64,000 nt of DNA from Bacteroidota bacterium. GTDB lineage: Bacteria > Bacteroidota > Bacteroidia > UKL13-3. Below, one piece after another: positions 5,307-26,036 of the stretch. How positions within the stretch are numbered: the first letter of the stretch is position 1; each line of letters begins with the position of its first letter. The stretch lies in NCBI GenBank assembly GCA_046309355.1, contig JBKCPL010000023.1:7024-71023 (forward strand), read 5' to 3'. A program made the position numbers and the translations under genes. The notes beneath the pieces are model-generated. The model worked only from the letters and a program-made list of their open reading frames with translations, was not told where the DNA came from and ran no database searches.

Positions 5307-5307
5307 T

Positions 5308-5646: not shown

Positions 5647-5650
5647 GATC

Positions 5651-6202: not shown

Positions 6203-6471
6203 TGGCTAAAGAATCAGTAAAAGCACGCCAACGTAAAAGAGAAGCTCTGGTTGCAAAATTTGCAGCTAAACGTGAGGCATTAAAACAAGCCGGTGATTTT
6301 GACGCGCTGCAAAAATTGCCCCGCAATGCTTCGCCCGTGCGTTTAAAAAACAGATGTAAGTTAACAGGTCGCCCGAAAGGCTACATGAGAGATTTTGGCA
6401 TCTGCCGTAATCAGTTTCGCGAACTGGCTTCGAAAGGTAAAATACCCGGAGTAACCAAAGCAAGCTGGTAA
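6202..6471 (+). CDS. rpsN: 30S ribosomal protein S14 (uS14), long 89-aa form
   Basis: [14 protein letters not shown]...[28 protein letters not shown]; start overlaps the rplE stop. Confidence 0.95.
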
Positions 6472-6541
6472 TAAATTAAGTCGGAGTTACGGATGTATCT
6501 AAAAATTAGCTATATTCGCGACCCGCAAAAAACAAACAAAC

Positions 6542-6580
6542 CTTAGCCGGTAAGAGTGCCCTTGGCTAACTGCCGGCAAG
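6542..6580 (+). promoter_or_regulatory. Candidate structured RNA leader upstream of rpsH (two mutually exclusive helices sharing one 5' arm)
   Basis: Hand-paired: CTT(A)GCCGG 6542-6550 pairs with CCGGCAAG 6573-6580 (8 bp, one bulge). Alternatively TTAGCC 6543-6548 pairs with GGCTAA 6564-6569. It lies in an unusual 130-nt gap inside an otherwise tightly packed operon. Confidence 0.3.
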
Positions 6581-6601
6581 CAAATTTAAAAATAAATAAA
6601 T

Positions 6602-7000
6602 ATGACTGACCCGATTTCAGATTATCTAACAAGGCTGCGTAATGCGATCAAGGCAAACCATCGTATTGTAGAAATACCGGCTTCAAAAATTAAGAAAGAG
6701 ATTACCAAAGTTCTCTTCGAAAAAGGCTACATCCTCAATTACAAATTTGATGATGAGGTAAACAAGCAAGGCGTTATTAAAATAGCGCTTAAGTATCACC
6801 CAGTTACCAAAACTTCAGCTATTAAAAGCTTGCAACGTGTAAGTACTCCAGGATTACGTCAGTATTCAGGTGTATCAAGTATTCCCCGCGTTATCAACGG
6901 TTTGGGAATTGCGATTTTAACTACATCAAAAGGCGTAATGGCTGACAAAGAAGCCCGCAAGATGAATGTAGGTGGCGAAGTATTGTGTTACGTTTATTAA
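6602..7000 (+). CDS. rpsH: 30S ribosomal protein S8 (uS8)
   Basis: 132 aa, MTDPISDYLTRLRNA canonical. Confidence 0.97.
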   Translation: MTDPISDYLTRLRNAIKANHRIVEIPASKIKKEITKVLFEKGYILNYKFDDEVNKQGVIKIALKYHPVTKTSAIKSLQRVSTPGLRQYSGVSSIPRVINGLGIAILTTSKGVMADKEARKMNVGGEVLCYVY

Positions 7001-15123: not shown

Positions 15124-16344
15124 TTAATCCGCTTTAACGACTATTCCGGGCTTTATACGCGATACAAAGCGTGAAGGAATGAGTAGTACTAAAATGCAGA
15201 CGGTAACAGCACCAGCGTTTATCCATACAATATCTGTTACATGCATCTCTATCGGAACATACGACAGGTAATATGCATCCTGAGATAAAGTAAACCATTT
15301 GAATGTATTTTGCGTGTAGCACAACAGCACTCCTGCTGCATTTCCTATGAGCAACCCAAGGATAAGCATGTAAGCAGAGAGATAAAGAAAAACGGACGAG
15401 ATAAATCGATTTGTACTTCCCAATGATTTAAGAATACCAATCATCATCGTGCGTTCTACAATCAATATAAGCAGGGCGGTAATCATATTTATGCACGCTA
15501 CTATTACCATTAAACCGATAATGACAACTACATTTAAATCAAGTAGACTAAGCCATTCAAACAGTTGCGGGTGAAGGTCACGTATAGTAAGCATCTCGAC
15601 AGAGTAGGGCAGATAATTGTAGATAGCAGCGGCCGATTCAAGTATATCTGCATCGCGTTGAAGTACTATTTCATACCCGGTAATAGCCTGAGGTACCCAA
15701 TTGTTGAGCTTTTGAACAACAGCCAAATCTACAAATGCGTAGGTTTCATCCAACTCATCAAATCCCGTATTAAAGATCCCTGATATGGTAAATTTACGTG
15801 CACGGGGCGGATCCTGAACAAAGTAAATAATGAATGCATCACCGCACTTCAGCTTTAGTTTGTTGGCCACACGCTCAGAAATCAATACCTGATTGGAGGA
15901 CTGAGTTGGCGAAGATTTAGGGTGAGCTCCTTTTACCAAATGCTGATTTATAAAACTCCAGTCATACTTACCAGGCTCAACTCCTTTAAGAACTATTCCA
16001 TGGAATTCTTCTTCGGTTTTTATGATACCCGCTTTGATACCGAATCGTTGTATGCGGTTAACACTCTTCTCTCGAGCAATAAATCTCTCCATAACGGTAT
16101 CTATAGCAATAGCAGTTGTTTGATACGAGTTATTCAAATCGAGCCTTGAGAGTTGTATATGCGCACTAAAACCGGTTATTTTGTTACGTATTTCGTGTTG
16201 ATATCCTTTAACAACGGCTACAGAAACAATCATCACAGCAATGCTTATAGAAACGGCTGCTATGGCAATTCGTACAATAAGTTTTGACGACCCTGATTGG
16301 GCACCTGCAGCCAAACGCTTTGCTATAAATAATGAAATCTTCAA
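15124..16344 (-). CDS. FtsX-like ABC transporter permease (LolC/E family)
   Basis: 406 aa, (TTG)KISLFIAKRLAAG start typical of LolE-like permeases; one N-terminal TM helix, a large periplasmic loop, then three C-terminal TM helices. Confidence 0.8.
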   Translation of the reverse strand: MKISLFIAKRLAAGAQSGSSKLIVRIAIAAVSISIAVMIVSVAVVKGYQHEIRNKITGFSAHIQLSRLDLNNSYQTTAIAIDTVMERFIAREKSVNRIQRFGIKAGIIKTEEEFHGIVLKGVEPGKYDWSFINQHLVKGAHPKSSPTQSSNQVLISERVANKLKLKCGDAFIIYFVQDPPRARKFTISGIFNTGFDELDETYAFVDLAVVQKLNNWVPQAITGYEIVLQRDADILESAAAIYNYLPYSVEMLTIRDLHPQLFEWLSLLDLNVVVIIGLMVIVACINMITALLILIVERTMMIGILKSLGSTNRFISSVFLYLSAYMLILGLLIGNAAGVLLCYTQNTFKWFTLSQDAYYLSYVPIEMHVTDIVWINAGAVTVCILVLLIPSRFVSRIKPGIVVKAD

Positions 16345-17546
16345 CTAATTTTCTGCGGATATTATGGTCCGAATATAAAAAGCAATCATTGATTTTTGCG
16401 CTATTATTCCTTAGCAGCAGTTTGTATGCCCAGCTTTTATGCGGTGCTGATCAGCCTGAACAGTATTTACCACGCTTAAAGAACAAAAAAGTAGCTGTCG
16501 TGGTAAACCAAACTTCCTGCTTGCATCACGATACAACTATTCATCTAGTCGATTTTCTAATCAAAAATAAAATAAACATTCGCTGCATTTTTGCTCCCGA
16601 GCATGGCTTTCGGGGCAATTATGAAGCCGGTGCTGCTGTTAAGAATGACACAGATACAAAAACCGGAATTGCAGTACTTTCCTTGTACGGTAAAAATAAA
16701 AAGCCCACAGCCGCACAATTATCCGGCATTGATGTAGTGCTTTTTGATATTCAAGATGTGGGTGTTAGATTTTATACTTATATATCAACATTGCATTACG
16801 TCATGGAGGCGTGTGCTGAACAAAATAAACCTCTGATTATACTTGACAGGCCAAACCCAAATGGATTTTATGTGGACGGACCGGTATTGGAATCGCGTTT
16901 TGCTTCATTTGTTGGCATGCACCCTGTGCCGGTGGTTCACGGCATGACCATTGGAGAATATGCACGAATGATTAATGGAGAGAAATGGCTAAAAAATAAA
17001 TTGATGTGTGCCTTACATATTGTACGGGTAAAAAACTACACACATTCATATAGGTATACGTTGCCGGTTGCTCCATCACCCAACTTGCGAACTATGACTG
17101 CTATTTATCTGTATCCAACATTATGCTTTTTGGAAGGTACCAGCTATAGTCTTGGGCGCGGAACAGATTGGCCCTTTGAATGTGCCGGAAAACCCGGATT
17201 AAAGTATGGAAATTTTGAATTTACACCCGTGCCGTTAAAAGGCGTTGCAGATAATCCACCCTACGCCAATACACCCTGTCGCGGAATTCGTTACAGCGAG
17301 CTAATAGACTCAACATTTTTCACAAAACCTCGACTACTGCTAAATGTATTGCTACAACTTTATACCCGAGATAATGATACAGCTTCCTTCTTCACACCTT
17401 TTTTTGACAAGCTGGCAGGCAACAACACATTCAGACAACAACTTTCAATCGGTATTGATGAACTCACTATTCGAGGCAGCTGGGCAAGCGGATTGAGTCA
17501 GTATATGAAGACGCGTAAAAAGTATTTAATTTACAGTGATAAATGA
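16332..17546 (+). CDS. DUF1343 family protein (NamZ-like exo-muramidase family)
   Basis: 404 aa, signal peptide, VAVVVNQTS...FAPEHGFRG...LDRPNP motifs recalled for DUF1343. Confidence 0.75.
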   Translation: MKSSTNFLRILWSEYKKQSLIFALLFLSSSLYAQLLCGADQPEQYLPRLKNKKVAVVVNQTSCLHHDTTIHLVDFLIKNKINIRCIFAPEHGFRGNYEAGAAVKNDTDTKTGIAVLSLYGKNKKPTAAQLSGIDVVLFDIQDVGVRFYTYISTLHYVMEACAEQNKPLIILDRPNPNGFYVDGPVLESRFASFVGMHPVPVVHGMTIGEYARMINGEKWLKNKLMCALHIVRVKNYTHSYRYTLPVAPSPNLRTMTAIYLYPTLCFLEGTSYSLGRGTDWPFECAGKPGLKYGNFEFTPVPLKGVADNPPYANTPCRGIRYSELIDSTFFTKPRLLLNVLLQLYTRDNDTASFFTPFFDKLAGNNTFRQQLSIGIDELTIRGSWASGLSQYMKTRKKYLIYSDK

Positions 17547-18196
17547 TACGTCAAATACAGATACTGTTACTTAAAGAAATGACTTATGAATGGCGGCAGA
17601 AGTATGCTATAAACGGCATATTGCTTCAGGTTGTTGCCATGATTTTTGTTGTTTTCCTAACCTTAAAAATAGTTAATGCACCCACCTGGAATGCCGTATT
17701 CTGGATTCTTTTGGTATTCAGTTCTGTAAATGCCATAGCCAAAAGTTTTATCGCGGAAAGCAAGGGCAGCCACCTATACAACTATGGACTATTGAAACCC
17801 AGAGTAATGCTTTTATCCAGACTTATTTACAATGCCCTGCTCATGTGTGTGATTATTACAATTACTCTTTTAGTATACTGGCTCCTTATGGGTCAGCATG
17901 CGCAACACATTTGGACCTATCTGCTTTGTGTGATTTTGGGAGGAATAGGGTTCTCATCCATTTTCACCATGATATCGGCCATTTCATCAAAGGCAAATAA
18001 CAGCCATACGGTAATGACCATTTTAAGCTTTCCATTACTTATCCCTATGATTATGGTAGCTAGCAAGGCAGGTAAAAAGGCTGTTGATGGGCTAGATTTC
18101 GCATTGATTTTACCCGACCTTGCAGTTCTGTGTTCATTAATCGTTCTGGTAGTCGTGCTGGCATTGCTATTATTTCCATTTCTTTGGCGCGATTGA
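17543..18196 (+). CDS. CcmB-like (heme exporter protein B family) membrane permease
   Basis: 217 aa, about 6 TM helices; overall layout and ILSFPLLIPMIMV segment resemble CcmB; ATGA overlap with the upstream gene. Confidence 0.55.
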   Translation: MIRQIQILLLKEMTYEWRQKYAINGILLQVVAMIFVVFLTLKIVNAPTWNAVFWILLVFSSVNAIAKSFIAESKGSHLYNYGLLKPRVMLLSRLIYNALLMCVIITITLLVYWLLMGQHAQHIWTYLLCVILGGIGFSSIFTMISAISSKANNSHTVMTILSFPLLIPMIMVASKAGKKAVDGLDFALILPDLAVLCSLIVLVVVLALLLFPFLWRD

Positions 18197-18210
18197 GAGG
18201 TACTGAACAT

Positions 18211-19137
18211 ATGGATAAACTACGAATTTTATTTTTTGGCACTCCCGATTTTGCTGTCGCATCGCTTGAAAAATTAGTAACCAACGGCATGAACATAGTG
18301 GCTGTAGTAACAGCACCCGACAGGCCTGCAGGCAGGGGTTTGCACATAATGGAATCGCCTGTAAAGCGTTTCGCATTAAAGCATAATTTGCCTGTACTAC
18401 AACCTACCAACCTGAAAAACTCAGATTTTATTGAGCAGTTGCGATCATTCAATGCCGATGTACAAGTGGTTATTGCCTTCCGAATGCTGCCTGAAATAGT
18501 ATGGAACATGCCTCGTTTAGGAACTATAAACCTGCATGCATCACTTTTGCCCCAATACAGAGGAGCTGCTCCTATAAACTGGGCGATTATAAACGGGGAA
18601 AAAACTACCGGAGTTACTACCTTTAAACTTAAACACGAGGTTGACACAGGAAATATTCTTGAACAAAAACAAATTCATATTGACGCAGATGATGATGCGG
18701 GTACTCTGCACGACAGGCTTATGCGAGAGGGAGCTAGTTTAATGTTGGATACCATTCAGCATATTCAAAACGGAGAGTATAAGGAAACTCCACAACCAAC
18801 ATCCGAGCATATTCGCTTTGCCCCAAAAATTCATACCGAAGATTGTATCATAGACTGGCATCATTCAGGAACGGACATTGTCAATAGAATACGAGGTCTT
18901 AGTCCTTATCCTGGGGCTGTAACCCGAATCAAGTCAAAGCTTTTTAAGCTATATAAGGCAAAATTTAACCCTCAAAACGTTGTTGACTCCCAAATTGGAA
19001 CTATATTGGCACAAAATAATAGCCTCTTTATAGTGTGTAAAGATGGCCTCGTAGAAATTTTGCAATTGCAGATGGAGGGAAAAAAACGCATGGAAACAGG
19101 CGAATTTTTAAGAGGTCACAAACAACTTATACCCTAA
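18211..19137 (+). CDS. fmt: Methionyl-tRNA formyltransferase
   Basis: Track start 18130 overlaps the previous gene; I prefer the ATG at 18211 (MDKLRILFFGTPDFAV...). NLHASLLPQYRGAAPINWAIINGE motif. Confidence 0.93.
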   Translation: MDKLRILFFGTPDFAVASLEKLVTNGMNIVAVVTAPDRPAGRGLHIMESPVKRFALKHNLPVLQPTNLKNSDFIEQLRSFNADVQVVIAFRMLPEIVWNMPRLGTINLHASLLPQYRGAAPINWAIINGEKTTGVTTFKLKHEVDTGNILEQKQIHIDADDDAGTLHDRLMREGASLMLDTIQHIQNGEYKETPQPTSEHIRFAPKIHTEDCIIDWHHSGTDIVNRIRGLSPYPGAVTRIKSKLFKLYKAKFNPQNVVDSQIGTILAQNNSLFIVCKDGLVEILQLQMEGKKRMETGEFLRGHKQLIP

Positions 19138-19180: not shown

Positions 19181-19212
19181 TTTGATATATTAAATTTATT
19201 AATCTACTTTCG
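19181..19212 (+). promoter_or_regulatory. Possible promoter for the XrtF module (-33 TTTG / -7-like TACTTTCG)
   Basis: TTTG at 19181-19184, a 20-nt spacer, then TACTTTCG at 19205-19212 (one mismatch to TAnnTTTG). Confidence 0.3.
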
Positions 19213-19231
19213 TGCAATCAAGAAATAAATA

Positions 19232-19414
19232 ATGAAAAAACTGTTTCTACTCATAGTTTGTTTATTTACCTTACAGCTTGTCAAGTCGCAGCCTGACACC
19301 CCTCCGGGCGATTTTATTGACACTGACCCCGAGCTACCGGTTGATGGTGCTGTGGGACTTTTACTGGCTGCCGGATTAGGATATGGAGTAAAGAAGCTCA
19401 GAAATAAAAAATAA
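19232..19414 (+). CDS. 60-aa secreted mini-protein with a PEP-CTERM-like C-terminal sorting signal (candidate XrtF cargo)
   Basis: MKKLFLLIVCLFTLQLVKS|QPDTPPGDFIDTDPELPVDG-AVGLLLAAGLGYGV-KKLRNKK. The parts are a signal peptide, an acidic/Pro-rich linker, a P-V-D-G motif, a Gly/Ala-rich TM helix and a basic tail. Confidence 0.6.
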   Translation: MKKLFLLIVCLFTLQLVKSQPDTPPGDFIDTDPELPVDGAVGLLLAAGLGYGVKKLRNKK

Positions 19415-19434
19415 TTATCAACATCTTATATTTG

Positions 19435-19464
19435 AAAGGAAGTTTTTTAAAACTTCCTTTTTTT
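19435..19464 (+). terminator. Intrinsic terminator/attenuator between the mini-protein gene and xrtF
   Basis: AAAGGAAGTT-TTTTAA-AACTTCCTTT, a 10-bp perfect stem, then a T-run ending one base before the xrtF ATG (19465). Confidence 0.65.
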
Positions 19465-20001
19465 ATGCGCTTAGCAAAACCACTCATTCGATTTCTGACT
19501 ATTATGGGTACACTATCCATTATCTGGTTTGTGGTGTACGAATTTAGCCTAAAAGCTAACGGTAAGCTTGATAAGTATATTACCGTGCATGTAACTGAAT
19601 ACGTGTGTTTTATGCTTAATGTAAGTGGCTATGAAACCTATTATAAAACTACACTCCGACTGGGTGAAGCATATATTTATTTTGTGCCGAAAATTAAACC
19701 TGTTGTGCGAATGGGAGCGTCATGCAACGGCCTGGAATTATTTGTCCTATTTATATTTTTTGTAGTATCCTATCCGGGCAGATGGATGTATAAAATTCCT
19801 TACCTTATATCGGGCCTCTTGGTTATTGACATCATTAATATTTTACGTTCGTACTGGCTTACGCTGATGGCCTATAACCGCTATCCCTACTTCGATTTGT
19901 TTCACCGGTACATATTTATAGCAATGATATACGGAGCAGTTTTCGGACTGTGGATGCTATGGGCTAACTATTTCAGTAAAAAGGGATATGAAAATGCATA
20001 A
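19465..20001 (+). CDS. xrtF: Exosortase family protein XrtF
   Basis: 178 aa from the ATG at 19465 (the track TTG start at 19432 lies in the terminator stem). Polytopic; Cys/Arg/His in exosortase order (GASCNG, NILR, FHRY); Bacteroidota context and partner gene downstream. Confidence 0.75.
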   Translation: MRLAKPLIRFLTIMGTLSIIWFVVYEFSLKANGKLDKYITVHVTEYVCFMLNVSGYETYYKTTLRLGEAYIYFVPKIKPVVRMGASCNGLELFVLFIFFVVSYPGRWMYKIPYLISGLLVIDIINILRSYWLTLMAYNRYPYFDLFHRYIFIAMIYGAVFGLWMLWANYFSKKGYENA

Positions 20002-20434
20002 CCGCACAGTTGCTTACTTGTTATTGCTCGTCCTTTTTATATTGGGGCTATTCAAAGACAAAATAACACCCGACTACCTAAACTCCCCGGTTGCTTTTTT
20101 CCTGAATCCCAATCACAAGCACTATTTGGGTGTTCTTCATTCGCATCTGTTATTGCCTCAATTTTGGCTAAAAGCATATCTGTTTACGGTAGCGTTTTGT
20201 ATCGTTCCTTACTTTATCATTAAACTACTCTATTCCACGCAATATGCTTGCTACACGCTTTATCTGCTGATTGCGCTTGCCGTAGCCCAGTACAGCATAG
20301 TATGGCTTGAAAATACTGAACTAAATGTGCATGTTTTACCCAAGATAAACCGCTACCTGCACTCTCCGTTTATTACCTTATTTCTTATAGCAGCATTAAC
20401 CCTCTACAAAAATGCAGATACTGAGCATTCCTGA
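19988..20434 (+). CDS. Exosortase F system-associated membrane protein
   Basis: 148 aa, about 4 TM helices; overlaps the xrtF stop by 14 nt. Position and size fit the obligate XrtF neighbour (TIGR04127, from memory). Confidence 0.6.
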   Translation: MKMHNRTVAYLLLLVLFILGLFKDKITPDYLNSPVAFFLNPNHKHYLGVLHSHLLLPQFWLKAYLFTVAFCIVPYFIIKLLYSTQYACYTLYLLIALAVAQYSIVWLENTELNVHVLPKINRYLHSPFITLFLIAALTLYKNADTEHS

Positions 20435-22124
20435 TCGGCTGTATGAATATTTAACAAACGAGAATAAACCTGAAAAAGGATTTACGCTGGGTTTATTCAG
20501 AATTGTATTTGCTGCTCAGCTGTTGCTATGGGCCTATCATACGCATGTATACAAAGCCTTGCTCTTCGATTCGGTAGCAGGAATTAGTAAAAGTGTTTTT
20601 CCTTTCAATGTTTTGCTGTTTCTGTGGATATGTGCACTCTCCTGCATACTTATAGGGCTTTACACTCATTTTGCTGCGGTAGCCAATTATGTATGCATCA
20701 TACTTATATCTGAAGTGTATGTTCGAAACGGTGTAGGTTCGTATTACGATGATGTGATGAAAATGGGTAGCATCTTACTTATAACTCTTCCTACGAATGC
20801 ACGGTTTTCTATTGACTCCATTCTTTTTCCTGCCTTACGAAACCAATGCACTAAACTTCACTATGTAGCAAGCTGGATTTTGCTATTCGGACTTATGTAC
20901 TTCATGTCAGGTAGTAGCAAAGTACTTTCACCGGTATGGCAAAAGGGACTTGGATTATGGACACCTCTTAGTATGCCCTATTGGAGGTACACTACCTGGC
21001 TTGACGGAATACAGGACATTAAGTGGTTAATGATGGTATTAAATTATGCTGTTATAGCATGGGAAATTGGCTTCGTATTTCTTTTATTCAGTAAGCGATG
21101 GCAAAAGGTCGCTATACTAGCCGGCATGTTGTTTCACCTCGCTATCGCTGCATGTTTTTATTTCCCTCAAACTGCACTGAGCTGCGCAGCGTGTTATGTG
21201 CTGTTTATACCTGACCACTTCTGGGAGAAGCTGTATGTAGCGATAAGTACATCAAAAAAAATTACCGTGTTTGTACCCGATACTCCTTTATCTGCCAGGT
21301 ATTTTCAGTTCATCAAGTCGCTTGACTTTCGCAACAAATTTATTCCTGCATACGATGCATATGAAGCTGATTTGATATTAAATAGCCGTCATGCTGTCGG
21401 AACTGCTCTGTCAGCCTATGTAGTATACAAACCGCTTTCGTGGTGGCTGTACACTAAAGTTCAATCCGGCACCGCAATACCAGCAAAACAACAGATGGCA
21501 CCTTACTTCCGGTTAAGTCAGCAAAATCTGGCACGTTTTGTTCTGCTGATTATTGGATTGTACGGTTTCTACCTCTGCGCATTTGTATACAGCAAATGGC
21601 GGCACCAAACCGATGAAGTGAAATCACCAACAACCTCATCCTATAGAGAAAGAGGTTTTAAGCTTACACCATTATCGATATGCCGCACCTTTTTAGGTAT
21701 AAACAGCAAAGCCGTATTTACGGACAAGGCAATGATGGCAAAACGTAGCTGTTATGCTATAACTTACCTACAAAATGGAAGAAGTTACTGGCTTCCTATG
21801 TTAAACCATCAGGGAATTGTAAGTCCGGATACAGACAAGCAGGGCAGCTGGTGGAAACTGCATCACTTTGCCATTACAGAGTCTCAAGAAGGATTAAATG
21901 AGCAAAACCTGATTAGAAATAGTGTGTATTTGTTACGTAAACAAGGGATTAACCTTCAGTCTACCCACTTCCGAGTACTTGAACGTCAGTATGTTCCACC
22001 TGATAAATTTGAACAGGGATACTATGCCAAAATGTATAAACTGCCCTGGTATACCTGTGGTTTTTTAGTGCCTGATAAGAATTTACTTCGGTTTATTCCT
22101 GCACGCTCCCACAAATCTGAATGA
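20412..22124 (+). CDS. HTTM domain (vitamin K-dependent gamma-carboxylase-like) membrane protein with a C-terminal extension of about 280 aa
   Basis: 570 aa; N-terminal GFTLGLFRIVFAAQLLLWAY is the hallmark start of HTTM domains; multiple TM helices to about aa 280; overlaps the upstream gene by 23 nt. Confidence 0.7.
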   Translation: MQILSIPDRLYEYLTNENKPEKGFTLGLFRIVFAAQLLLWAYHTHVYKALLFDSVAGISKSVFPFNVLLFLWICALSCILIGLYTHFAAVANYVCIILISEVYVRNGVGSYYDDVMKMGSILLITLPTNARFSIDSILFPALRNQCTKLHYVASWILLFGLMYFMSGSSKVLSPVWQKGLGLWTPLSMPYWRYTTWLDGIQDIKWLMMVLNYAVIAWEIGFVFLLFSKRWQKVAILAGMLFHLAIAACFYFPQTALSCAACYVLFIPDHFWEKLYVAISTSKKITVFVPDTPLSARYFQFIKSLDFRNKFIPAYDAYEADLILNSRHAVGTALSAYVVYKPLSWWLYTKVQSGTAIPAKQQMAPYFRLSQQNLARFVLLIIGLYGFYLCAFVYSKWRHQTDEVKSPTTSSYRERGFKLTPLSICRTFLGINSKAVFTDKAMMAKRSCYAITYLQNGRSYWLPMLNHQGIVSPDTDKQGSWWKLHHFAITESQEGLNEQNLIRNSVYLLRKQGINLQSTHFRVLERQYVPPDKFEQGYYAKMYKLPWYTCGFLVPDKNLLRFIPARSHKSE

Positions 22125-22151: not shown

Positions 22152-22182
22152 TTTGCAGATAGTGTAATATGCCTTATACTTG
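22152..22182 (+). promoter_or_regulatory. Candidate promoter of rpsA (-33 TTTG / -7 TATACTTG)
   Basis: TTTG at 22152-22155, a 19-nt spacer, then TATACTTG at 22175-22182 (one mismatch to TAnnTTTG). Confidence 0.4.
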
Positions 22183-22215
22183 CAGGCTTTTTTAAGCGAA
22201 AGGAGAATTAAACAT

Positions 22216-24021
22216 TTGACAAACGAAAACCAACACTTAACACCTTCAGCCCCTGCGGCTGATTTCGACTGGAGCATGGACAAAGAGGGCTTCAGCAAGT
22301 ACTCAAACGAAGAGCAGGCAAATCTGGAAAGCCTGTACGAACAAACACTCAGCACCATTGCAGAGCGTGAAATCGTAAAAGGAACCGTAGTAGGTTTTAC
22401 AGAAAAAGAGGTCGTATTAAACATCGGATTTAAGTCGGATGGATTAATCCCTAAAACAGAATTCCGTGATATGCCTGAACTTAAGGCTGGCGATGTGGTA
22501 GAAGTACTACTCGAAAACAAGGAAGATCTTAATGGTCAGCTTGTACTATCGCGCAAGAAAGCAATCAGCGAGCGTGCCTGGGAAAACATCATTAAAGCTC
22601 AAGAAAACGATGAAGTTGTAAACGGATACGTAAAAACGCGCACCAAGGGCGGATTGGTCGTTGATGTAATGGGTATTGATACTTTTCTTCCGGGATCACA
22701 AATTGATACCAAGCCAATTAAAGATTATGATATTTACGTAGGTCAAACCATGCCATTTAAAGTGGTTAAGGTAAACAATGCCTTCAAAAACGTGGTTATA
22801 TCACACAAAGTGCTTATAGAAGAAGATATTGAGGCACAAAAATCAGACATCCTCTCGAAACTTGAAAAAGGTCAGGTACTGGAAGGTATGGTTAAAAATA
22901 TGACTTCATTTGGCGTATTTATTGACCTGGGCGGTGTAGATGGATTATTGCACATTACCGACATATCGTGGGGTCGTGTTAATCACCCGGAAGAAGTGCT
23001 GAAGATGGACCAGAAGATAAATGTGGTGGTGCTTGATTTTGACGATGAGAAAAAACGCATAAGCTTAGGTTTGAAACAACTTACTTCACATCCATGGGAT
23101 AGCCTGTCGGAGAAACTGGAAGTTGGTGCTGTAGTGAAAGGAAAAGTAGTAAACATAGCCGATTATGGCGCATTTCTAGAAATTGCACCGGGTGTTGAAG
23201 GCCTGATTCACGTATCAGAAATGAGCTGGAGCCAGCATCTTCGCAATCCTTCGGATTTCATGAAACTGGGTGATGAAATAGAAGCGAAAATACTGACCAT
23301 TGATAAAGAGGAACGCAAAATGTCTCTCGGTATTAAGCAGCTAAAACCTGATCCATGGTCAAATATTGCTGAAAAATATCCGGTTGGCTCAAAACATACA
23401 GGAGTTGTTCGCAATATGACTAATTATGGCTTATTCCTTGAATTGGAAGAAGGCGTAGATGGGTTAGTTCACGTAAGCGACCTTAGCTGGACTAAGAAAA
23501 TTAAACATCCTGCCGAATTTGTGAAGAAAGATCAACCGCTGGAAGTACTTGTTTTGGAAATGGACCTGGAAAACCGTAGATTGAGCTTAGGGCACAAGCA
23601 ACTGGATGAAAACCCATGGGATACATTTGAAACCATATTCACACCGGGTTCGGTACATGAAGGTACTGTATTAAAGGTAGAAGATAAGAGTGCCATTATT
23701 GCATTGCCATACGGAGTTGAAGGATATGCACCTATTAAACAGTTGCAGAAAGAAGACAAGAAAACAGCCAAGGAAGATGAAGTGTTGTCTTTTAAAGTGA
23801 CGGAGTTTAATAAAGAAAACAAACGCATAGTAGTATCGCATACTTCGGTATGGAAAGCGGATGCGGAAGAGAAGAAGGCAGACGAGACTAAGAAAAAAGA
23901 AGGCGAAAAAGAAAAAGCGTCCAAAGCAGCCAAAAAACTCAACGACAGCAATGAGAAGTCGACATTTGGTGATATTGATGCCTTGACTGAGTTGAAATCT
24001 AAAATGGAAAAAAGTGAGTAA
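22216..24021 (+). CDS. rpsA: 30S ribosomal protein S1
   Basis: Six S1 repeats (e.g. GQVLEGMVKNMTSFGVFIDLGGVDGLLHITD). There is no in-frame ATG upstream of the conserved ADFDW segment. I prefer TTG 22216 (AAGGAG sits 10 nt upstream) over TTG 22180, which lies in the putative -7 box. Confidence 0.9.
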   Translation: MTNENQHLTPSAPAADFDWSMDKEGFSKYSNEEQANLESLYEQTLSTIAEREIVKGTVVGFTEKEVVLNIGFKSDGLIPKTEFRDMPELKAGDVVEVLLENKEDLNGQLVLSRKKAISERAWENIIKAQENDEVVNGYVKTRTKGGLVVDVMGIDTFLPGSQIDTKPIKDYDIYVGQTMPFKVVKVNNAFKNVVISHKVLIEEDIEAQKSDILSKLEKGQVLEGMVKNMTSFGVFIDLGGVDGLLHITDISWGRVNHPEEVLKMDQKINVVVLDFDDEKKRISLGLKQLTSHPWDSLSEKLEVGAVVKGKVVNIADYGAFLEIAPGVEGLIHVSEMSWSQHLRNPSDFMKLGDEIEAKILTIDKEERKMSLGIKQLKPDPWSNIAEKYPVGSKHTGVVRNMTNYGLFLELEEGVDGLVHVSDLSWTKKIKHPAEFVKKDQPLEVLVLEMDLENRRLSLGHKQLDENPWDTFETIFTPGSVHEGTVLKVEDKSAIIALPYGVEGYAPIKQLQKEDKKTAKEDEVLSFKVTEFNKENKRIVVSHTSVWKADAEEKKADETKKKEGEKEKASKAAKKLNDSNEKSTFGDIDALTELKSKMEKSE

Positions 24022-24040
24022 CTCACATTCCCATATTGAA

Positions 24041-24072
24041 AAAATCCCGGCACCTGTGTCGGGATTTTTTTT
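24041..24072 (+). terminator. Rho-independent terminator after rpsA
   Basis: AAAATCCCG...CGGGATTTT stem (9 bp, extendable) followed by a T-run to 24072. Confidence 0.8.
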
Positions 24073-24084
24073 GCTCAAAAAGTT

Positions 24085-24092
24085 TAAGTTTG
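24085..24092 (+). promoter_or_regulatory. -7 promoter box TAAGTTTG, 6 nt upstream of the EVE gene ATG
   Basis: Perfect TAnnTTTG match; no clear -33 element at consensus spacing. Confidence 0.4.
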
Positions 24093-24098
24093 AACACA

Positions 24099-24506
24099 AT
24101 GAAACATTGGTTAGTAAAATCCGAGCCCTTCAAGTATAGCTGGGAACAATTCGTAAAAGACAAACGTACCTTCTGGGATGGTGTTAGAAACTATCAGGCC
24201 AGAAACAGTTTAAAGGCCATGAAGAAAGGCGACCTAGTGATGTGGTATCACAGCAATGAGGGCAAAGAAGTAGTAGGCATAGCTAAAGTAGCAAAAGAGT
24301 TTTACCAAGACCCCACAACTGATGATCCGAATTGGGTAGTAGTAGATTTGGTACCGTTTAAGAAACTAAAGAAAGCAGTAAGTCTGGAACAGATCAAAAA
24401 CGATAAAAGACTTTCAGAAATAGGACTTATACGGCAAGGACGACTCAGCGTAATGCCGCTAAAACAAACCGAATTTGACACCCTACTAGCACTATCCGAA
24501 ACATGA
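24099..24506 (+). CDS. EVE (PUA-like) domain protein
   Basis: 135 aa from the ATG at 24099 (track start 24036 is inside the rpsA terminator). MKHWLVKSEPFKYSWEQF...WDGVRNYQARN typical EVE start. Confidence 0.8.
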   Translation: MKHWLVKSEPFKYSWEQFVKDKRTFWDGVRNYQARNSLKAMKKGDLVMWYHSNEGKEVVGIAKVAKEFYQDPTTDDPNWVVVDLVPFKKLKKAVSLEQIKNDKRLSEIGLIRQGRLSVMPLKQTEFDTLLALSET

Positions 24507-24518
24507 TTGAATATTGCA

Positions 24519-24526
24519 TACATTTG
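24519..24526 (+). promoter_or_regulatory. -7 promoter box TACATTTG upstream of pyrR-pyrB
   Basis: Perfect TAnnTTTG match. It lies downstream of the track ATG at 24514, which argues for the ATG at 24550 as the pyrR start. Confidence 0.45.
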
Positions 24527-24549
24527 TACAAACACAAACACATCAGCGA

Positions 24550-25095
24550 ATGAACGCAAAGCCGATATTGGATAAAAAGAAATTTGCCATTACGATAGAT
24601 AGGTTGTGTTACGAACTCATCGAAAGGCATGGTGACTTTTCGCAAACTGCGCTCATCGGGTTACAGCCACGAGGCATATACCTTTCACGTAGAATTCACG
24701 AACGCATAAGTCAGTTGCTTAAAAACACCCGGATACTTTACGGTGAACTTGACATTGCATTTTACCGCGATGATTTCAGGCGTGGAAACGAACAGATATT
24801 GCCCAGTGAACTTAACATGAACTTTAGCGTTGAAGACAAACATATCGTTTTGATAGATGATGTGCTGTACACAGGACGCACCATCAGGGCAGCACTTGAT
24901 GCGCTAACTGATTTTGGCCGCCCTGCCAAAGTAGAGCTACTCACACTTATTGATCGCAGATACAGTAGGCATTTACCCATACAACCCGATTATGTAGGCA
25001 TGACAGTTGATGCCCGATCGAACGACAAAGTAAAAGTAGAATGGAAAGAAACCTCTAAAGCCGATACAGTTTACATCATAACCCCTACCGAATGA
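24550..25095 (+). CDS. pyrR: Bifunctional pyrimidine operon regulator / uracil phosphoribosyltransferase PyrR
   Basis: 181 aa; VLIDDVLYTGRTIRAALDAL PRPP-binding motif; ATGA overlap with pyrB. Confidence 0.88.
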   Translation: MNAKPILDKKKFAITIDRLCYELIERHGDFSQTALIGLQPRGIYLSRRIHERISQLLKNTRILYGELDIAFYRDDFRRGNEQILPSELNMNFSVEDKHIVLIDDVLYTGRTIRAALDALTDFGRPAKVELLTLIDRRYSRHLPIQPDYVGMTVDARSNDKVKVEWKETSKADTVYIITPTE

Positions 25096-26036
25096 GCGCT
25101 AACCAACTACCCAAAGAATTCAGTCAAAAACATCTGCTGGGCATTAAAGACCTAACCCGTAACGACATTGAACTCGTATTTGAAACAGCCGATAACTTTA
25201 AAGCCATTATCAACCGCCCCATCAAAAAAGTTCCTTCTCTGCGTGATATTACTGTTGCCAATATATTTTTCGAAAATTCTACCCGAACCCGTATTTCCTT
25301 TGAGCTGGCCCAAAAACGACTAAGTGCTGATGTGATAAATTTCTCTGCATCCTCTTCTTCTGTATCAAAAGGTGAAACGCTGATTGATACGGTCAAAAAT
25401 ATTTTAAGCATGAAGGTAGACATGGTGGTAATGAGACACCCTGCTCCAGGAGCCTGTATTTTCCTATCGAAACACATAGATGCACAAATTATTAATGCCG
25501 GTGACGGTACCCACGAGCATCCCACACAGGCTCTGCTAGACGCTTATTCTATACGTGAAAAACTGGGCGGTGTAAAAGGAAAAAAAGTGGTTATTGTGGG
25601 TGATATTTTACACTCAAGAGTTGCACTTTCAAATATACTTTGCTTACAAAAACTGGGTGCGGAAGTCATGGTGTGCGGACCAACAACACTTATGCCTAAA
25701 TACATACATACGCTGGGAGTAAAGGTAGAGAGCGACTTGATGAAAGCACTGAACTGGTGTGATGTAGCTAATATGCTTCGCATTCAGCTCGAACGGCAAG
25801 ATATTAAATACTTCCCATCATTGCGCGAATACAGTATGCTTTACGGATTGAATAAGAAAAGGCTGGATGAATTAAATAAAGAAATTGTCATCATGCATCC
25901 GGGACCCATCAACAGGGGTGTTGAAATAACCAGCGATGTAGCTGACAGTAAACACAGCATTATACTCGATCAGGTTGAAAACGGAGTAGCTACCCGAATG
26001 GCGATAATGTATTTACTGGCCGGAAAAAAAGTGTAA
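25092..26036 (+). CDS. pyrB: Aspartate carbamoyltransferase catalytic subunit
   Basis: 314 aa; FFENSTRTRISFE and HPTQALLD signature motifs. Confidence 0.95.
   Translation: MSANQLPKEFSQKHLLGIKDLTRNDIELVFETADNFKAIINRPIKKVPSLRDITVANIFFENSTRTRISFELAQKRLSADVINFSASSSSVSKGETLIDTVKNILSMKVDMVVMRHPAPGACIFLSKHIDAQIINAGDGTHEHPTQALLDAYSIREKLGGVKGKKVVIVGDILHSRVALSNILCLQKLGAEVMVCGPTTLMPKYIHTLGVKVESDLMKALNWCDVANMLRIQLERQDIKYFPSLREYSMLYGLNKKRLDELNKEIVIMHPGPINRGVEITSDVADSKHSIILDQVENGVATRMAIMYLLAGKKV

What the first reader, a model, noticed from the sequence alone, without database searches (positions are those of the whole stretch)
19181..22124. Compact XrtF exosortase module: mini-cargo gene, attenuator, xrtF, partner protein and a coupled HTTM (VKGC-like) enzyme
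Seen in sequence:
- Four same-strand ORFs. The last three overlap (19988 vs 20001; 20412 vs 20434), so they look translationally coupled.
- ORF2 is polytopic and carries Cys/Arg/His in exosortase order (GASCNG, NILR, FHRY).
- ORF3 is a 148-aa membrane protein with about 4 helices.
- ORF4 opens with the HTTM hallmark LGLFRIVF..LLLW.

Established knowledge, from memory: XrtF (TIGR04128) and its obligate neighbour (TIGR04127) are Bacteroidota-restricted. As far as I recall they were defined without an assigned cargo or physiological role.

Inference: the 60-aa ORF in front is a dedicated cargo and the HTTM enzyme belongs to the same pathway. That would make this a small-peptide maturation/anchoring system rather than a general sorting machine. 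It is the best candidate in the window for an undescribed system.
Basis: partly seen in the sequence, partly recalled or inferred. Interest (0 to 1): 0.8.

Follow-up and report, generated by a model that had tools for sequence, protein, structure and literature searches.

The report
Exosortase mini-peptide operon with carboxylase-like enzyme
An uncultured Bacteroidota bacterium has a four-gene operon joining a tiny exported peptide, its XrtX-type (not XrtF) exosortase and partner protein, and a distant relative of the human vitamin-K-dependent carboxylase; I found no prior description of this combination, but it occurs in only one bacterial lineage.

Summary
Four same-strand genes sit at 19232-22124, the last three overlap, and a terminator-like hairpin lies between gene 1 and gene 2.

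The XrtF label does not hold:
- The exosortase scores best against NCBIfam XrtX (138 bits, cut-off 170). It scores 81.6 against XrtF (cut-off 90).
- The 60-aa protein carries a PID-CTERM sorting domain (41.6 bits, cut-off 26).
- The partner is only distantly related to both the XrtX- and XrtF-associated proteins.

ORF4 is more than an HTTM domain. Its AlphaFold model (pLDDT 87) matches only human gamma-glutamyl carboxylase in the PDB, over about 550-600 aligned positions. It keeps the catalytic Lys (K170 = K218) and its acidic partner (E218 = D263). It does not keep the Glu-pocket residues.

The order cargo, exosortase, partner, HTTM recurs in every locus of this exosortase subfamily whose contig is long enough, with the overlaps preserved. 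The flanking genes fmt and rpsA are conserved too, so this is one lineage and one chromosomal site. Five standard or near-standard XrtX loci lack the HTTM gene. Seventy loci of the nearest HTTM relatives lack exosortases and lie in polysaccharide clusters.

Verdict: a new variant of the XrtX/PID-CTERM system. The chemistry of the carboxylase-like enzyme is unproven.

The parts
19181..19212 (+). Candidate Bacteroidota-type promoter: TTTG (19181-19184), 20-nt spacer, TACTTTCG (19205-19212; the -7 consensus is TAnnTTTG), 19 nt before the cargo ATG
   Evidence: Read from the sequence. A TAnnTTTG-like octamer with at most 1 mismatch lies about 15-40 nt upstream of the cargo ATG in most related loci. 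This is a pattern match only. At one mismatch it is weak statistically. The promoter consensus is from my own knowledge.
19232..19414 (+). Mini-cargo gene, 60 aa. Signal peptide M1-S19, predicted cleavage before Q20. Short acidic core Q20-L35 (QPDTPPGDFIDTDPEL). PID-CTERM sorting domain aa 35-59: P36-V37-D38, a Gly/Ala/Leu-rich TM helix, then the KKLRNKK tail
   Evidence: NCBIfam PID_CTERM NF046080 scores 41.6 bits against a cut-off of 26. An orthologue is found directly upstream of the exosortase in 24 loci of the genome scan plus two further look-ups. Coding-type conservation: pN/pS 0.35. It is the only PID-CTERM ORF in the 64-kb window.
19434..19464 (+). Terminator/attenuator-like hairpin: 12-bp stem 19434-19445 / 19450-19461, loop 19446-19449, and a seven-U run (19458-19464) ending one base before the exosortase ATG
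   Evidence: Fold gives dG -12.7 kcal/mol and z -2.57. A hairpin with the same AGGAAGT...ACTTCCT(T)n core occurs in L001, L003, L005, L009, L010, L018 and L024. The inner two pairs covary and the outer pairs are nearly invariant. It was not picked up by the simple terminator scan. Function was not tested.
19465..20001 (+). Exosortase, 178 aa, of an XrtX-like subfamily. Catalytic-type residues C87 (GASCNG), R128 (NILR) and H147 (FHRY)
   Evidence: NF046081 XrtX 138.4 bits (cut-off 170). TIGR04128 XrtF 81.6 (cut-off 90). TIGR04178 exosortase/archaeosortase signature 42.1 (cut-off 23). C87, R128 and H147 are invariant. The subfamily is separated from cut-off-passing XrtX by a score gap, at least 229 versus at most 156 bits.
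19988..20434 (+). Partner membrane protein, 148 aa, about 4 TM segments. Invariant motifs KDxxTPDYxN (aa 23-32) and KxNRYxHSP (aa 119-127). Overlaps the exosortase gene by 14 nt
   Evidence: It immediately follows the exosortase in all loci. Alignment A8. Weak relatedness to both partner families: 15 of 21 members hit NF046082 (best E 3.9e-5) and 12 of 21 hit TIGR04127 (best E 5e-4), all far below the cut-offs.
20412..22124 (+). GGCX-like membrane protein, 570 aa. Overlaps the partner gene by 23 nt
   Evidence: Pfam HTTM 28.9 bits (cut-off 27.7). AlphaFold2 model pLDDT 87.4, pTM 0.88. The top 16 Foldseek PDB hits are all human GGCX (best E 2.9e-8, 544-607 aligned columns); the next hit has E about 0.9.
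20412..21251 (+). HTTM transmembrane domain of ORF4 (aa 1-280), with K170, E218 and F241-H242
   Evidence: K170 aligns with GGCX K218. E218 aligns with D263, F241-H242 with F286-H287, and I245 with N290. K170, H242 and I245 are invariant and E218 is at least 90% conserved in 60 family members.
21261..21455 (+). Degenerate DCC1-like (thioredoxin-fold) insert of ORF4 (aa 284-348). It lacks the CxxC motif
   Evidence: Full-length relatives carry Pfam DCC1-like PF04134 at the equivalent place, with a CPLC motif near residue 295-300. The window protein and its clade have no Cys pair there. The model shows a beta-alpha-beta-alpha-alpha unit. Homology of this stretch is inferred from the single-stretch profile matches.
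21519..21602 (+). Last transmembrane helix of ORF4 (aa 370-397), in the position of GGCX TM9
   Evidence: Model helix H370-397 and hydropathy peak 376-394. The equivalence to TM9 is inferred from the full-length Foldseek match.
21669..22106 (+). C-terminal alpha/beta domain of ORF4 (aa 420-565), predicted to be periplasmic, in the position of the GGCX luminal substrate-binding domain. Conserved RTxxGINxxxVFxD motif (aa 425-438)
   Evidence: Model. Foldseek alignments span 544-607 columns, more than the roughly 280-residue HTTM domain. Motif. Topology is inferred from GGCX (PMC12589487).

Best explanation
This is a self-contained four-gene operon for making and placing one small envelope peptide. 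It is built on an XrtX-type exosortase, not an XrtF-type one.

Proposed steps, each marked shown or inferred:
1. Transcription starts just upstream of the mini-gene. A terminator-like hairpin before the enzyme genes keeps cargo mRNA in excess. (Inferred.)
2. The 60-aa precursor is exported by Sec and cut before Q20. In Bacteroidota that Gln is normally cyclised to pyroglutamate. The peptide stays tethered in the inner membrane by its PID-CTERM helix and basic tail. (Inferred from the sequence and from PMC5837995.)
3. The acidic 10-25-residue core now sits at the periplasmic membrane face. There it is handled by ORF4, a full-length structural relative of the vitamin-K-dependent carboxylase. ORF4 keeps the quinol-activating Lys/acid pair (K170/E218). 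It probably uses menaquinol and O2 to modify the peptide, or to hold it by its conserved Phe/acidic motif. (The fold match and the conserved residues are shown. The chemistry and the substrate are inferred.)
4. The exosortase (C87/R128/H147), together with its 4-TM partner, cleaves at or just after P-[IV]-[DN]. It passes the short peptide to an unknown envelope acceptor, or releases it. (Inferred by analogy with sortases, archaeosortases and other exosortases.)

The three enzyme genes overlap one another, so they are probably translated together.
For: - Family placement: ORF2 scores XrtX 138.4, XrtF 81.6 and the exosortase signature 42.1 (cut-off 23). ORF1 scores PID_CTERM 41.6 (cut-off 26).
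- Subfamily: ten homologues all score best on XrtX (129-171.5 bits). Relatives that pass the XrtX cut-off form a separate tier.
- Gene order: cargo, xrt, partner, HTTM in every subfamily locus where the contig allows. That covers the 24 subfamily loci of the genome scan plus L031 and L102.
- Overlaps: xrt/partner and partner/HTTM overlap by at least 4 nt (mostly 4-23) in all 22 complete cases. The overlap length changes between loci, so the arrangement is maintained rather than frozen. By contrast the cassette is separated from fmt and rpsA by spacers.
- Cargo: real coding gene and the only PID-CTERM ORF in the window.
- Hairpin: conserved, with two covarying pairs.
- ORF4 fold: model pLDDT 87. 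The only structural relatives in the PDB are GGCX entries, aligned over about 550-600 columns.
- ORF4 residues: K170 = K218, E218 = D263 and FH = F286-H287. The roles of K218, D263 and N290 are from PMC12589487 and PMC13486548.
- Precedent: HTTM proteins take part in maturing Sec-exported precursors with a hydrophobic C-terminus in Bacillus (SdpB/YitO; PMC6818787).
Against: - All loci come from one lineage. fmt upstream and rpsA downstream are conserved as well. The HTTM-exosortase link is therefore one evolutionary event, not repeated independent co-occurrence.
- The residues that hold the substrate Glu in GGCX (N159/H160) are Tyr/Asp or Asp/Asp here. An acidic pocket fits an acidic peptide poorly.
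- No single Glu is invariant in the cargo core. Asp and Glu interchange.
- The nearest HTTM relatives have no peptide or exosortase neighbour. They sit in polysaccharide clusters.
- Five XrtX loci, standard or near-standard, work without any HTTM gene.
- There are no expression, protein or mass-spectrometry data.
- The acceptor and the cleavage site are unknown for every exosortase of this branch.
Confidence: 0.45

Rival explanations
1. ORF4 belongs to the pathway but acts on the acceptor, not on the peptide. It would prepare or present an envelope glycan or lipid, for example an isoprenoid-linked or amine-bearing molecule, to which the exosortase then attaches the mini-peptide.
For: - The closest HTTM-DCC1 relatives lie in O-antigen or capsule-type clusters (epimerase, DegT aminotransferase, acetyltransferase, ATP-grasp, GT2, Wzm/Wzt) in 37 or fewer of 70 loci per gene family.
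- Standard XrtX genes are themselves embedded in polysaccharide clusters in two of four look-ups.
- The Asp-Asp pocket replacing N159/H160 would suit a cationic group. The mature cargo has no Lys or Arg.
Against: - No glycan genes flank the cassette in this lineage.
- The C-terminal domain occupies the position of the peptide-binding domain of GGCX (PMC12589487).
- The cargo core carries a conserved Phe/acidic motif that would have no explanation if only the PID motif mattered.
Confidence: 0.25
2. ORF4 is functionally unrelated. It is a membrane oxidoreductase-like gene that happens to be fixed next to the exosortase pair in this lineage, and only cargo, exosortase and partner form the system.
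For: - The whole neighbourhood, from NamZ-like and CcmB-like genes and fmt through to rpsA, EVE and pyrR-like genes, is syntenic. Adjacency alone therefore carries little weight.
- Standard XrtX modules are complete without it.
Against: - The partner/ORF4 overlap is retained in all 22 loci while its length varies.
- ORF4 has diverged to 26-34% identity while keeping its position.
- This ORF4 clade (top hits at 380 bits or more) is distinct from the free-standing relatives and has lost the CxxC motif.
Confidence: 0.15
3. The 60-aa protein is not a substrate to be delivered. It would be a stoichiometric subunit, a regulator or a primer of the exosortase, and the real cargo would be encoded elsewhere.
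For: - Mini PID-CTERM genes (61-107 aa) sit directly upstream of XrtX-type genes in three unrelated loci. In two of them the mature part is very short and Pro-rich.
- Only 64 kb of this genome could be searched for other PID-CTERM proteins.
Against: - It has all parts of a sorting substrate: signal peptide, motif, TM helix and basic tail.
- The hairpin after it implies that it is made in excess over the enzymes, which is typical of substrates.
Confidence: 0.1
4. One reading: a compact XrtF system (TIGR04128 plus TIGR04127) with a newly recognised cargo.
For: - JGI and some NCBI records label subfamily members 'XrtF'.
- Two homologues pass the XrtF cut-off (98.2 and 94.7 bits), though both score higher on XrtX.
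- Twelve of 21 partners give weak TIGR04127 hits.
Against: - The window protein is below the XrtF cut-off and scores about 57 bits higher on XrtX.
- The partner gives no TIGR04127 hit.
- The cargo carries PID-CTERM, the signal that NCBIfam models alongside XrtX and its partner (adjacent accessions NF046080-82). It is found directly upstream of standard or near-standard xrtX genes.
Confidence: 0.03

Closest known systems
XrtX / PID-CTERM system (NCBIfam NF046081 exosortase X, NF046082 XrtX-associated membrane protein, NF046080 PID-CTERM; Pfam PF28310). It exists as database models only. No paper in the searched library mentions it.
   Same: - XrtX is the best-scoring model for the exosortase.
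- The cargo passes the PID-CTERM model.
- The exosortase gene is followed by an overlapping gene for a membrane partner of about 150 aa.
- A mini PID-CTERM gene lies immediately upstream, as in L026, L029 and L103.
   Different: - The exosortase and the partner fall below the curated cut-offs (138 vs 170; 13 vs 75). They form a separate subfamily, about 28-37% identical to the tier of relatives that includes the cut-off-passing XrtX.
- The operon carries a fourth gene, the GGCX-like protein. It is absent from the five standard or near-standard XrtX loci examined.
- The cargo core has its own Phe/acidic motif.
XrtF system of Flavobacteriia (TIGR04128 XrtF plus TIGR04127 partner; Fjoh_1448/1449)
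   Same: - A short (about 175-aa) Bacteroidota exosortase paired with a small membrane protein.
- Distant homology of both proteins.
- In F. johnsoniae, deleting either gene impairs surface colonisation and biofilm formation (PMC10936215). This points to a cell-surface role for this branch.
   Different: - Both curated cut-offs are missed.
- XrtF substrates are still unknown (PMC10936215), whereas here a cognate sorting signal is present next door.
- I did not examine XrtF loci for an HTTM partner.
Human vitamin-K-dependent gamma-glutamyl carboxylase (GGCX/VKGC; e.g. PDB 9BVQ, 9MQB)
   Same: - It is the only structural relative in the PDB, matched over nearly the full length: the HTTM membrane domain, a further TM helix and a C-terminal extracytoplasmic domain.
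- The catalytic base K218 and its partner D263 are conserved as K170 and E218. The F286-H287 motif is conserved.
   Different: - Sequence identity is 12-14%.
- Glu-pocket residues N159/H160 are not conserved, and N290 is Ile.
- An extra DCC1-like insert lies between the HTTM domain and the last TM helix.
- The segment 374-418, which is needed for carboxylation, was not mapped.
- Activity is untested.
Free-standing bacterial HTTM-DCC1-like proteins (Pfam PF05090 plus PF04134 fusions, about 560-650 aa)
   Same: Same three-part architecture. ORF4's profile hits them at about 1e-50 to 1e-70, many as one full-length stretch. K170, H242 and Y163 are invariant across both groups.
   Different: - Many keep a CPLC redox motif that the cassette clade has lost.
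- None of 70 loci has an exosortase, partner or PID-CTERM gene within 5 kb.
- They sit in sugar-modification and polysaccharide-export clusters.
SdpB/YitO of Bacillus subtilis (sdpABC and yitPOM operons; TIGR04033)
   Same: An HTTM-family membrane protein is encoded in a small operon with a Sec-exported precursor that has a hydrophobic C-terminal part. The operon yields a short secreted peptide (PMC6818787).
   Different: - ORF4 gives no significant hit to TIGR04033. Relatives score 16-19 bits against a cut-off of 178.
- The Bacillus operons have no exosortase and no sorting signal. They use SdpA instead.
Truncated VKGC-like epoxidases of giant viruses (PMC13486548)
   Same: Same pattern of conservation: K218 is kept, D263 is replaced by Glu and N290 by Ile. 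The authors read this as epoxidase chemistry without Glu carboxylation.
   Different: The viral proteins lack the C-terminal domain and are fused or adjacent to lipid desaturases. ORF4 keeps a C-terminal domain and sits in a peptide-sorting operon.

Membership tests
Exosortase/archaeosortase superfamily (TIGR04178 signature; Pfam PF09721) | Signature model at or above its cut-off; polytopic membrane protein with conserved Cys, Arg and His | tested here: met
   TIGR04178 scores 42.1 bits against a cut-off of 23. C87, R128 and H147 are invariant in 21 homologues. PF09721 is only weak for the window protein (17.5 vs 25.7), but it is recorded for most homologues.
XrtF (TIGR04128) | Whole-protein score at or above the curated cut-off of 90 bits, and best-scoring model | tested here: not met
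   81.6 bits, and XrtX scores 138.4.
XrtF system | Adjacent exosortase F system-associated protein (TIGR04127) | tested here: not met
   ORF3 gives no hit at E up to 1. Twelve of 21 orthologues give weak hits, best E 5e-4.
XrtX (NF046081) | Whole-protein score at or above the curated cut-off of 170 bits | tested here: not met
   138.4 bits, the best model but below the cut-off. Subfamily members score 129-171.5, and only one of ten reaches 170. Seven of the ten more distant relatives tested pass, at 177-219 bits.
XrtX system | Adjacent XrtX-associated membrane protein (NF046082, cut-off 75) | tested here: inconclusive
   ORF3 scores 13.3 bits, E 0.052. Fifteen of 21 orthologues hit weakly. Partners of cut-off-passing XrtX genes also miss the cut-off (21-70 bits), so the model is narrow. 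Position, size and overlap match.
PID-CTERM sorting domain (NF046080 / PF28310) | C-terminal P-[IV]-[DN] motif, TM helix and basic tail, scoring at or above 26 bits; an N-terminal signal peptide | tested here: met
   41.6 bits over aa 35-59. PF28310 is recorded for the orthologue in L031. The signal peptide ending before Gln was read from the sequence.
HTTM domain (Pfam PF05090) | Score at or above the gathering threshold of 27.7 | tested here: met
   28.9 bits over aa 48-267, marginal. Relatives score 23-37 bits.
Vitamin-K-dependent carboxylase (GGCX) | Overall fold: HTTM membrane domain plus a further TM helix plus an extracytoplasmic C-terminal domain | tested here: met
   Foldseek E 2.9e-8 to 1.8e-3 for 16 GGCX entries, 544-607 aligned columns, TM-score 0.33-0.45 when normalised by query length. 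The next hit has E about 0.9. The moderate TM-score and the rmsd of 11-14 A show that the domains are arranged differently.
Vitamin-K-dependent carboxylase (GGCX) | Catalytic base K218 with its partner D263 | tested here: met
   K170 aligns with K218. E218 aligns with D263. D263E retains 25% activity according to PMC13486548.
Vitamin-K-dependent carboxylase (GGCX) | Glu-binding pocket N158/N159/H160 (plus Y395 and R436), and N290 contacting the quinol | tested here: not met
   N158/N159/H160 align with Y111/Y112/D113, or with Y112/D113/D114 if the register is shifted by one. N290 aligns with I245 (clade consensus S-F-N-D-D). Y395 and R436 could not be aligned. Roles are from PMC12589487.
Vitamin-K-dependent carboxylase (GGCX) | Segment 374-418, essential for carboxylation | not tested
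   The sequence profile alignment stops before it, and Foldseek output gives no residue map.
Vitamin-K-dependent carboxylase (GGCX) | Quinol- and O2-dependent carboxylation or epoxidation activity | not testable with these tools
   Needs biochemistry.
DCC1-like thiol-disulfide oxidoreductase (PF04134) | Thioredoxin-like domain with a CxxC motif | tested here: not met
   The window protein gives no Pfam hit. There is no CxxC at aa 284-348. Full-length relatives have the domain and a CPLC motif.
SdpB family (TIGR04033) | Score at or above 178.4 | tested here: not met
   No hit for ORF4. Relatives score 16-19 bits.

The most novel reading that the evidence does not exclude
ORF4 is an active menaquinol- and O2-dependent enzyme. 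It post-translationally modifies the acidic core of the membrane-tethered mini-peptide, for example by carboxylation or another reaction driven by the strong base made from the quinol. The exosortase then cleaves the peptide and fixes it to the envelope. That would be the first ribosomal peptide substrate for a bacterial relative of the vitamin-K-dependent carboxylase. It would also be a new peptide-maturation route in which a C-terminal sorting signal serves as the recognition handle.
Probability: 0.15. Interest if true: 0.85.

Novelty: new variant of a known kind. Interest (0 to 1): 0.55.

Why it matters
Two old gaps meet in one small operon. First, no exosortase of the Bacteroidota XrtF/XrtX branch has a demonstrated substrate, cleavage site or acceptor. 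Second, no bacterial relative of the vitamin-K-dependent carboxylase has a known natural substrate.

Here the candidate substrate is a single peptide whose mature part is about 20 residues. The candidate enzymes are three overlapping genes. The catalytic residues to mutate are obvious: C87 in the exosortase, and K170 and E218 in ORF4. That makes the question testable by heterologous expression and mass spectrometry.

The work also corrects annotation. Public records call these proteins 'XrtF', 'archaeosortase/exosortase family protein' or 'hypothetical'. They are in fact a sister group of XrtX that falls just under the curated cut-offs.

The main limit is that the system is confined to one uncultured lineage, so the functional link to ORF4 rests on operon structure, not on repeated independent association.

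Tried and rejected
- XrtF assignment: rejected on curated scores.
- Rfam scan of the whole window for a known RNA element at the hairpin: nothing at gathering thresholds. The simple terminator scan also missed the hairpin.
- First structure prediction, from a 7-sequence alignment: unusable, pLDDT 50. A 60-sequence alignment worked.
- Sequence search of the PDB with the cassette-clade profile: nothing. Only the broader family profile reached GGCX, at E 0.29. The relationship therefore rests mainly on the fold search.
- No solved structure for any exosortase relative.
The narrower outgroup alignment worked.
- Search for an exosortase, partner or PID-CTERM gene next to outgroup HTTM proteins: none in 70 loci. 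Two further distant HTTM relatives also sit in unrelated contexts.
- A specific invariant Glu in the cargo as a carboxylation site: rejected, because Asp and Glu interchange and the window's core differs from the FEEIDDV type.
- A conserved large T9SS neighbour of XrtX loci: the three upstream proteins are not orthologous. One pair shares only a weak C-terminal match.
- Literature: no paper mentions PID-CTERM or exosortase X in this sense. None of the listed papers links HTTM domains with exosortases. Nothing useful turned up on HTTM-DCC fusions.

Full report
**1. What is there**

The region holds four + strand ORFs: 19232-19414 (60 aa), 19432-20001, 19988-20434 (148 aa) and 20412-22124 (570 aa).

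Homologues of ORF2, and the database gene call (178 aa, identical), start at ATG 19465. The real gap after the mini-gene is therefore 50 nt. That gap holds a perfect 12-bp hairpin at 19434-19461. Its run of seven U (19458-19464, the first four inside the stem) stops one base before the ATG. The fold gives dG -12.7 kcal/mol, and 3 of 200 shuffles fold as well.

ORF2 has GASCNG, NILR and FHRY, and C87, R128 and H147 are invariant in 21 homologues. Hydropathy supports membrane proteins for ORF2, ORF3 and ORF4. Each of the three occurs once in the 64-kb window. No Rfam family matches anywhere in the window.

**2. Which families**

Against NCBIfam:
- The 60-aa protein passes PID-CTERM (NF046080), 41.6 bits against a cut-off of 26, over aa 35-59.
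- ORF2 scores 138.4 on exosortase X (NF046081, cut-off 170) and 81.6 on XrtF (TIGR04128, cut-off 90). It scores 42.1 on the general exosortase/archaeosortase signature (cut-off 23).
- ORF3 has only a weak hit to the XrtX-associated protein (E 0.052) and none to the XrtF-associated protein.
- ORF4 has no NCBIfam hit. It just passes Pfam HTTM, 28.9 against 27.7.

Ten homologues of ORF2 behave the same way. XrtX is always the best model at 129-171.5 bits, and XrtF scores 69-98.

A profile of the subfamily splits database hits into two tiers. One tier scores 229 bits or more. The other scores 156 or less. Ten members of the lower tier were scanned and seven pass the XrtX cut-off, at 177-219 bits.

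The partner family is distantly related to both named partner families. Fifteen of 21 members hit NF046082 and 12 of 21 hit TIGR04127, all far below the cut-offs. It has two invariant motifs, KDxxTPDYxN and KxNRYxHSP.

So this is a sister subfamily of XrtX with a PID-CTERM substrate. The 'XrtF' label fails its own membership test.

**3. Conservation of the cassette**

A scan of one genome per bacterial and archaeal species found 25 loci, all from uncultured Bacteroidota genome bins. An iterated HMM search of their ORFs gave the following:
- In every locus of the subfamily the order is cargo, exosortase, partner, HTTM, wherever the contig reaches.
- The one exception, L007, encodes a standard XrtX (219 bits). 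It has a partner but no HTTM gene.

Two further look-ups show the same four genes. One of them lies on a 3.28-Mb contig.

In all 22 complete loci the exosortase/partner and partner/HTTM genes overlap, mostly by 4-23 nt. The overlap length differs between loci.

Important caveat: fmt upstream and rpsA downstream are conserved as well, as are several genes beyond them. All these loci therefore represent one lineage and one chromosomal site. The association of HTTM with the exosortase counts as a single evolutionary event.

**4. Comparison with standard XrtX loci**

Four loci around cut-off-passing XrtX genes all have the overlapping partner gene of about 155-160 aa. None has an HTTM gene downstream. 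Two of them lie inside polysaccharide clusters with glycosyltransferases, sulfotransferases and Wzm/Wzt.

A mini PID-CTERM gene sits directly upstream of the exosortase in three loci:
- L026: 77 aa, 40.9 bits.
- L029: 61 aa.
- L103: 107 aa, next to a more divergent XrtX-like gene that scores 130 bits.

A tiny dedicated PID-CTERM protein is therefore a general trait of this branch. It is not a discovery of this window. The fourth gene is what is special here.

**5. The cargo**

All 24 orthologues found by the scan share these features:
- a signal peptide ending, in almost all, in A/S followed by Q;
- a variable Pro/Ser/Ala-rich stretch;
- a short conserved core: F-[ED]-x-x-x-[DE]-x in most, and DFIDTDPEL in the window's sub-branch;
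- then P-[IV]-[DN]-G, a Gly/Ala/Leu/Ile-rich helix and a KKLYxRKK-type tail.

The Gln after the signal peptide fits the Bacteroidetes 'Q-rule', in which it is cyclised to pyroglutamate (PMC5837995). This was not tested here.

The mature region has no basic residue. The gene is under purifying selection: pN/pS is 0.35 and third codon positions vary most. It is the only PID-CTERM ORF in the window. The rest of the genome could not be checked.

**6. Regulatory signals**

A hairpin with the same AGGAAGT...ACTTCCT(T)n core occurs in eight loci. The two innermost pairs covary and the loops differ.

A second sub-branch lacks it. There a weaker TTAGCC...GGCTAA pairing includes the exosortase start codon. 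Those sequences are too similar to one another to test covariation.

A Bacteroidota-type -7 box with at most one mismatch lies about 15-40 nt before the cargo ATG in most loci. In the window it is TACTTTCG at 19205-19212, with TTTG 20 nt upstream. This is suggestive only. My reading is one promoter followed by a partial terminator, so that cargo mRNA exceeds enzyme mRNA. That is an inference.

**7. ORF4**

A search of 1.84 billion representative proteins with a 7-sequence profile found 2672 relatives at E up to 0.001, and 258 at E up to 1e-30. Many are proteins of 560-650 aa matched end to end. Many of these carry a DCC1-like thiol-disulfide oxidoreductase domain between the HTTM domain and the C-terminal part, often with a CPLC motif near residue 295-300. 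The cassette clade has the stretch but no cysteines.

With 60 sequences AlphaFold2 gave a confident model, pLDDT 87.4 and pTM 0.88. Its parts, in order:
- eight or so helices of the HTTM domain (aa 1-280);
- a small alpha/beta unit (aa 284-348);
- a long helix (aa 370-397);
- an alpha/beta domain (aa 420-565).

Foldseek against the PDB returned 16 entries of human gamma-glutamyl carboxylase as the only significant matches. The best has E 2.9e-8 and probability 1.0. The alignments span 544-607 columns, with TM-scores of 0.33-0.45. The next hit has E about 0.9.

The family profile aligns to GGCX residues 51-229 and puts the invariant K170 on K218. A forced profile alignment maps the other key residues:

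| GGCX residue | ORF4 residue |
|---|---|
| D263 | E218 |
| F286-H287 | F241-H242 |
| N290 | I245 |
| N158/N159/H160 | Y111/Y112/D113 (register uncertain by one) |

I checked it three ways: its length is 758 aa, it gives the same score as the PDB sequence, and nine residues named in the papers fall at their published numbers.

K218 is the base that deprotonates the quinol. D263 assists it. N159, H160 and Y395 hold the substrate Glu (PMC12589487, PMC13486548). Giant-virus homologues that keep K218, have Glu at position 263 and Ile at 290, and lack residues 374-418, are interpreted as epoxidases that do not carboxylate (PMC13486548). ORF4 shows the same residue pattern in the membrane domain, but unlike them it keeps a C-terminal domain.

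**8. Where ORF4 came from**

Seventy metagenome loci encoding the nearest free-standing relatives were retrieved. None has an exosortase, partner or PID-CTERM gene within 5 kb.

Their recurrent neighbours are:
- NAD-dependent epimerases (37 loci);
- DegT-type aminotransferases (36);
- hexapeptide acetyltransferases (35);
- ATP-grasp enzymes (24 and 13);
- HAD hydrolases (20);
- GT2 glycosyltransferases (16);
- acyltransferase-3 proteins (14);
- Wzt/Wzm ABC transporter components (11 and 10).

The ancestor of ORF4 therefore worked in surface-glycan pathways. It was recruited once into an XrtX-type operon and lost its redox cysteines.

**9. Mechanism and rivals**

The model I favour (confidence 0.45) runs as follows:
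1. The peptide is exported and tethered in the membrane by its sorting signal.
2. The GGCX-like enzyme handles it at the periplasmic membrane face.
3. The exosortase and its partner cleave it and either transfer or release it.

What is shown:
- the family placements;
- the conserved overlapping gene order;
- the fold match;
- the catalytic Lys/Glu pair.

What is inferred:
- the topology;
- the cofactor (Bacteroidota make menaquinones; this is general knowledge);
- the substrate;
- the cleavage site;
- the acceptor.

Evidence against peptide carboxylation in particular:
- The Glu pocket is not conserved and looks acidic.
- No Glu is invariant in the cargo.
- ORF4's relatives work without peptides.

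Rival readings:

| Rival | Confidence |
|---|---|
| ORF4 acts on the acceptor, not the peptide | 0.25 |
| ORF4 is an unrelated neighbour | 0.15 |
| The mini-protein is a subunit or regulator, not cargo | 0.10 |

**10. Novelty**

The XrtX/PID-CTERM pairing already exists as curated models, though I found no paper on it. XrtF and its partner now have a biofilm and colonisation phenotype in F. johnsoniae, but still no known substrate (PMC10936215).

None of the papers listed by a search linking HTTM domains with exosortases mentions both. The closest functional analogy is SdpB/YitO, HTTM-family proteins encoded in small operons that turn a Sec-exported precursor into a short secreted peptide toxin (PMC6818787).

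I rate the finding as a new variant of a known kind. It is of moderate to good interest, mainly because it offers a minimal, testable system.

Noticed in passing
L032-L101 (metagenome loci, match on + strand near 5001-6900 where flanks allow): The free-standing HTTM / DCC1-like / C-terminal-domain family (about 560-650 aa, many with a CPLC motif) sits recurrently in O-antigen or capsule-type clusters. Neighbours include epimerase, DegT aminotransferase, hexapeptide acetyltransferase, ATP-grasp, HAD, GT2, acyltransferase-3 and Wzm/Wzt genes. A GGCX-like quinol enzyme in amino-sugar or glycan pathways appears undescribed and may deserve its own study.
   Followed up: partly
L026:5744-5977, L029:3133-3318, L103:5709-6032: Standard or near-standard xrtX genes are directly preceded by a 61-107-aa PID-CTERM gene. 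In two of them the mature part is very short and Pro-rich (CWPPPCIPVDGG; QPPPPPATPIDGG). In all three loci a 930-1030-aa protein with a T9SS C-terminal tail lies just upstream. Those large proteins are not orthologous; one pair shares only a weak C-terminal match.
   Followed up: partly
L008, L011, L015-L017, L019-L022, L025: the 20-60 nt after the cargo stop codon: This sub-branch lacks the T-run hairpin. Instead it has a TTAGCC...GGCTAA pairing that includes the exosortase start codon (ATGGGGCTAA). That would mask translation initiation rather than terminate transcription. The sequences are too similar to one another for a covariation test.
   Followed up: no
L026:6530-7003, L027:6522-7007, L028:6534-7016, L029:4021-4485, L007:1421-1855: Partner proteins next to XrtX genes that pass the XrtX cut-off all miss the curated cut-off of the XrtX-associated model NF046082 (21-70 bits against 75). 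That model is too narrow to annotate most of the family.
   Followed up: no
window 16332-19137 and 22180-26036: The cassette is inserted between housekeeping genes that keep their order across the lineage. Upstream are a NamZ-like DUF1343 gene, a CcmB-like membrane gene and fmt. Downstream are rpsA, an EVE-domain gene, a phosphoribosyltransferase gene and an OTCase-like gene. The names are taken from Pfam labels on the orthologous loci.
   Followed up: partly
window 19232-19291 and the cargo orthologues in L001-L025: In almost all orthologues the cargo signal peptide ends so that Gln becomes the new N-terminus (AQ, SQ or GQ). This fits the Bacteroidetes Q-rule and predicts a pyroglutamate-capped peptide (PMC5837995).
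   Followed up: no
L023:708-2435: The HTTM orthologue in this locus contains a short masked stretch, XXXX in the translation. It comes from N bases in the public record, not from a frameshift.
   Followed up: no
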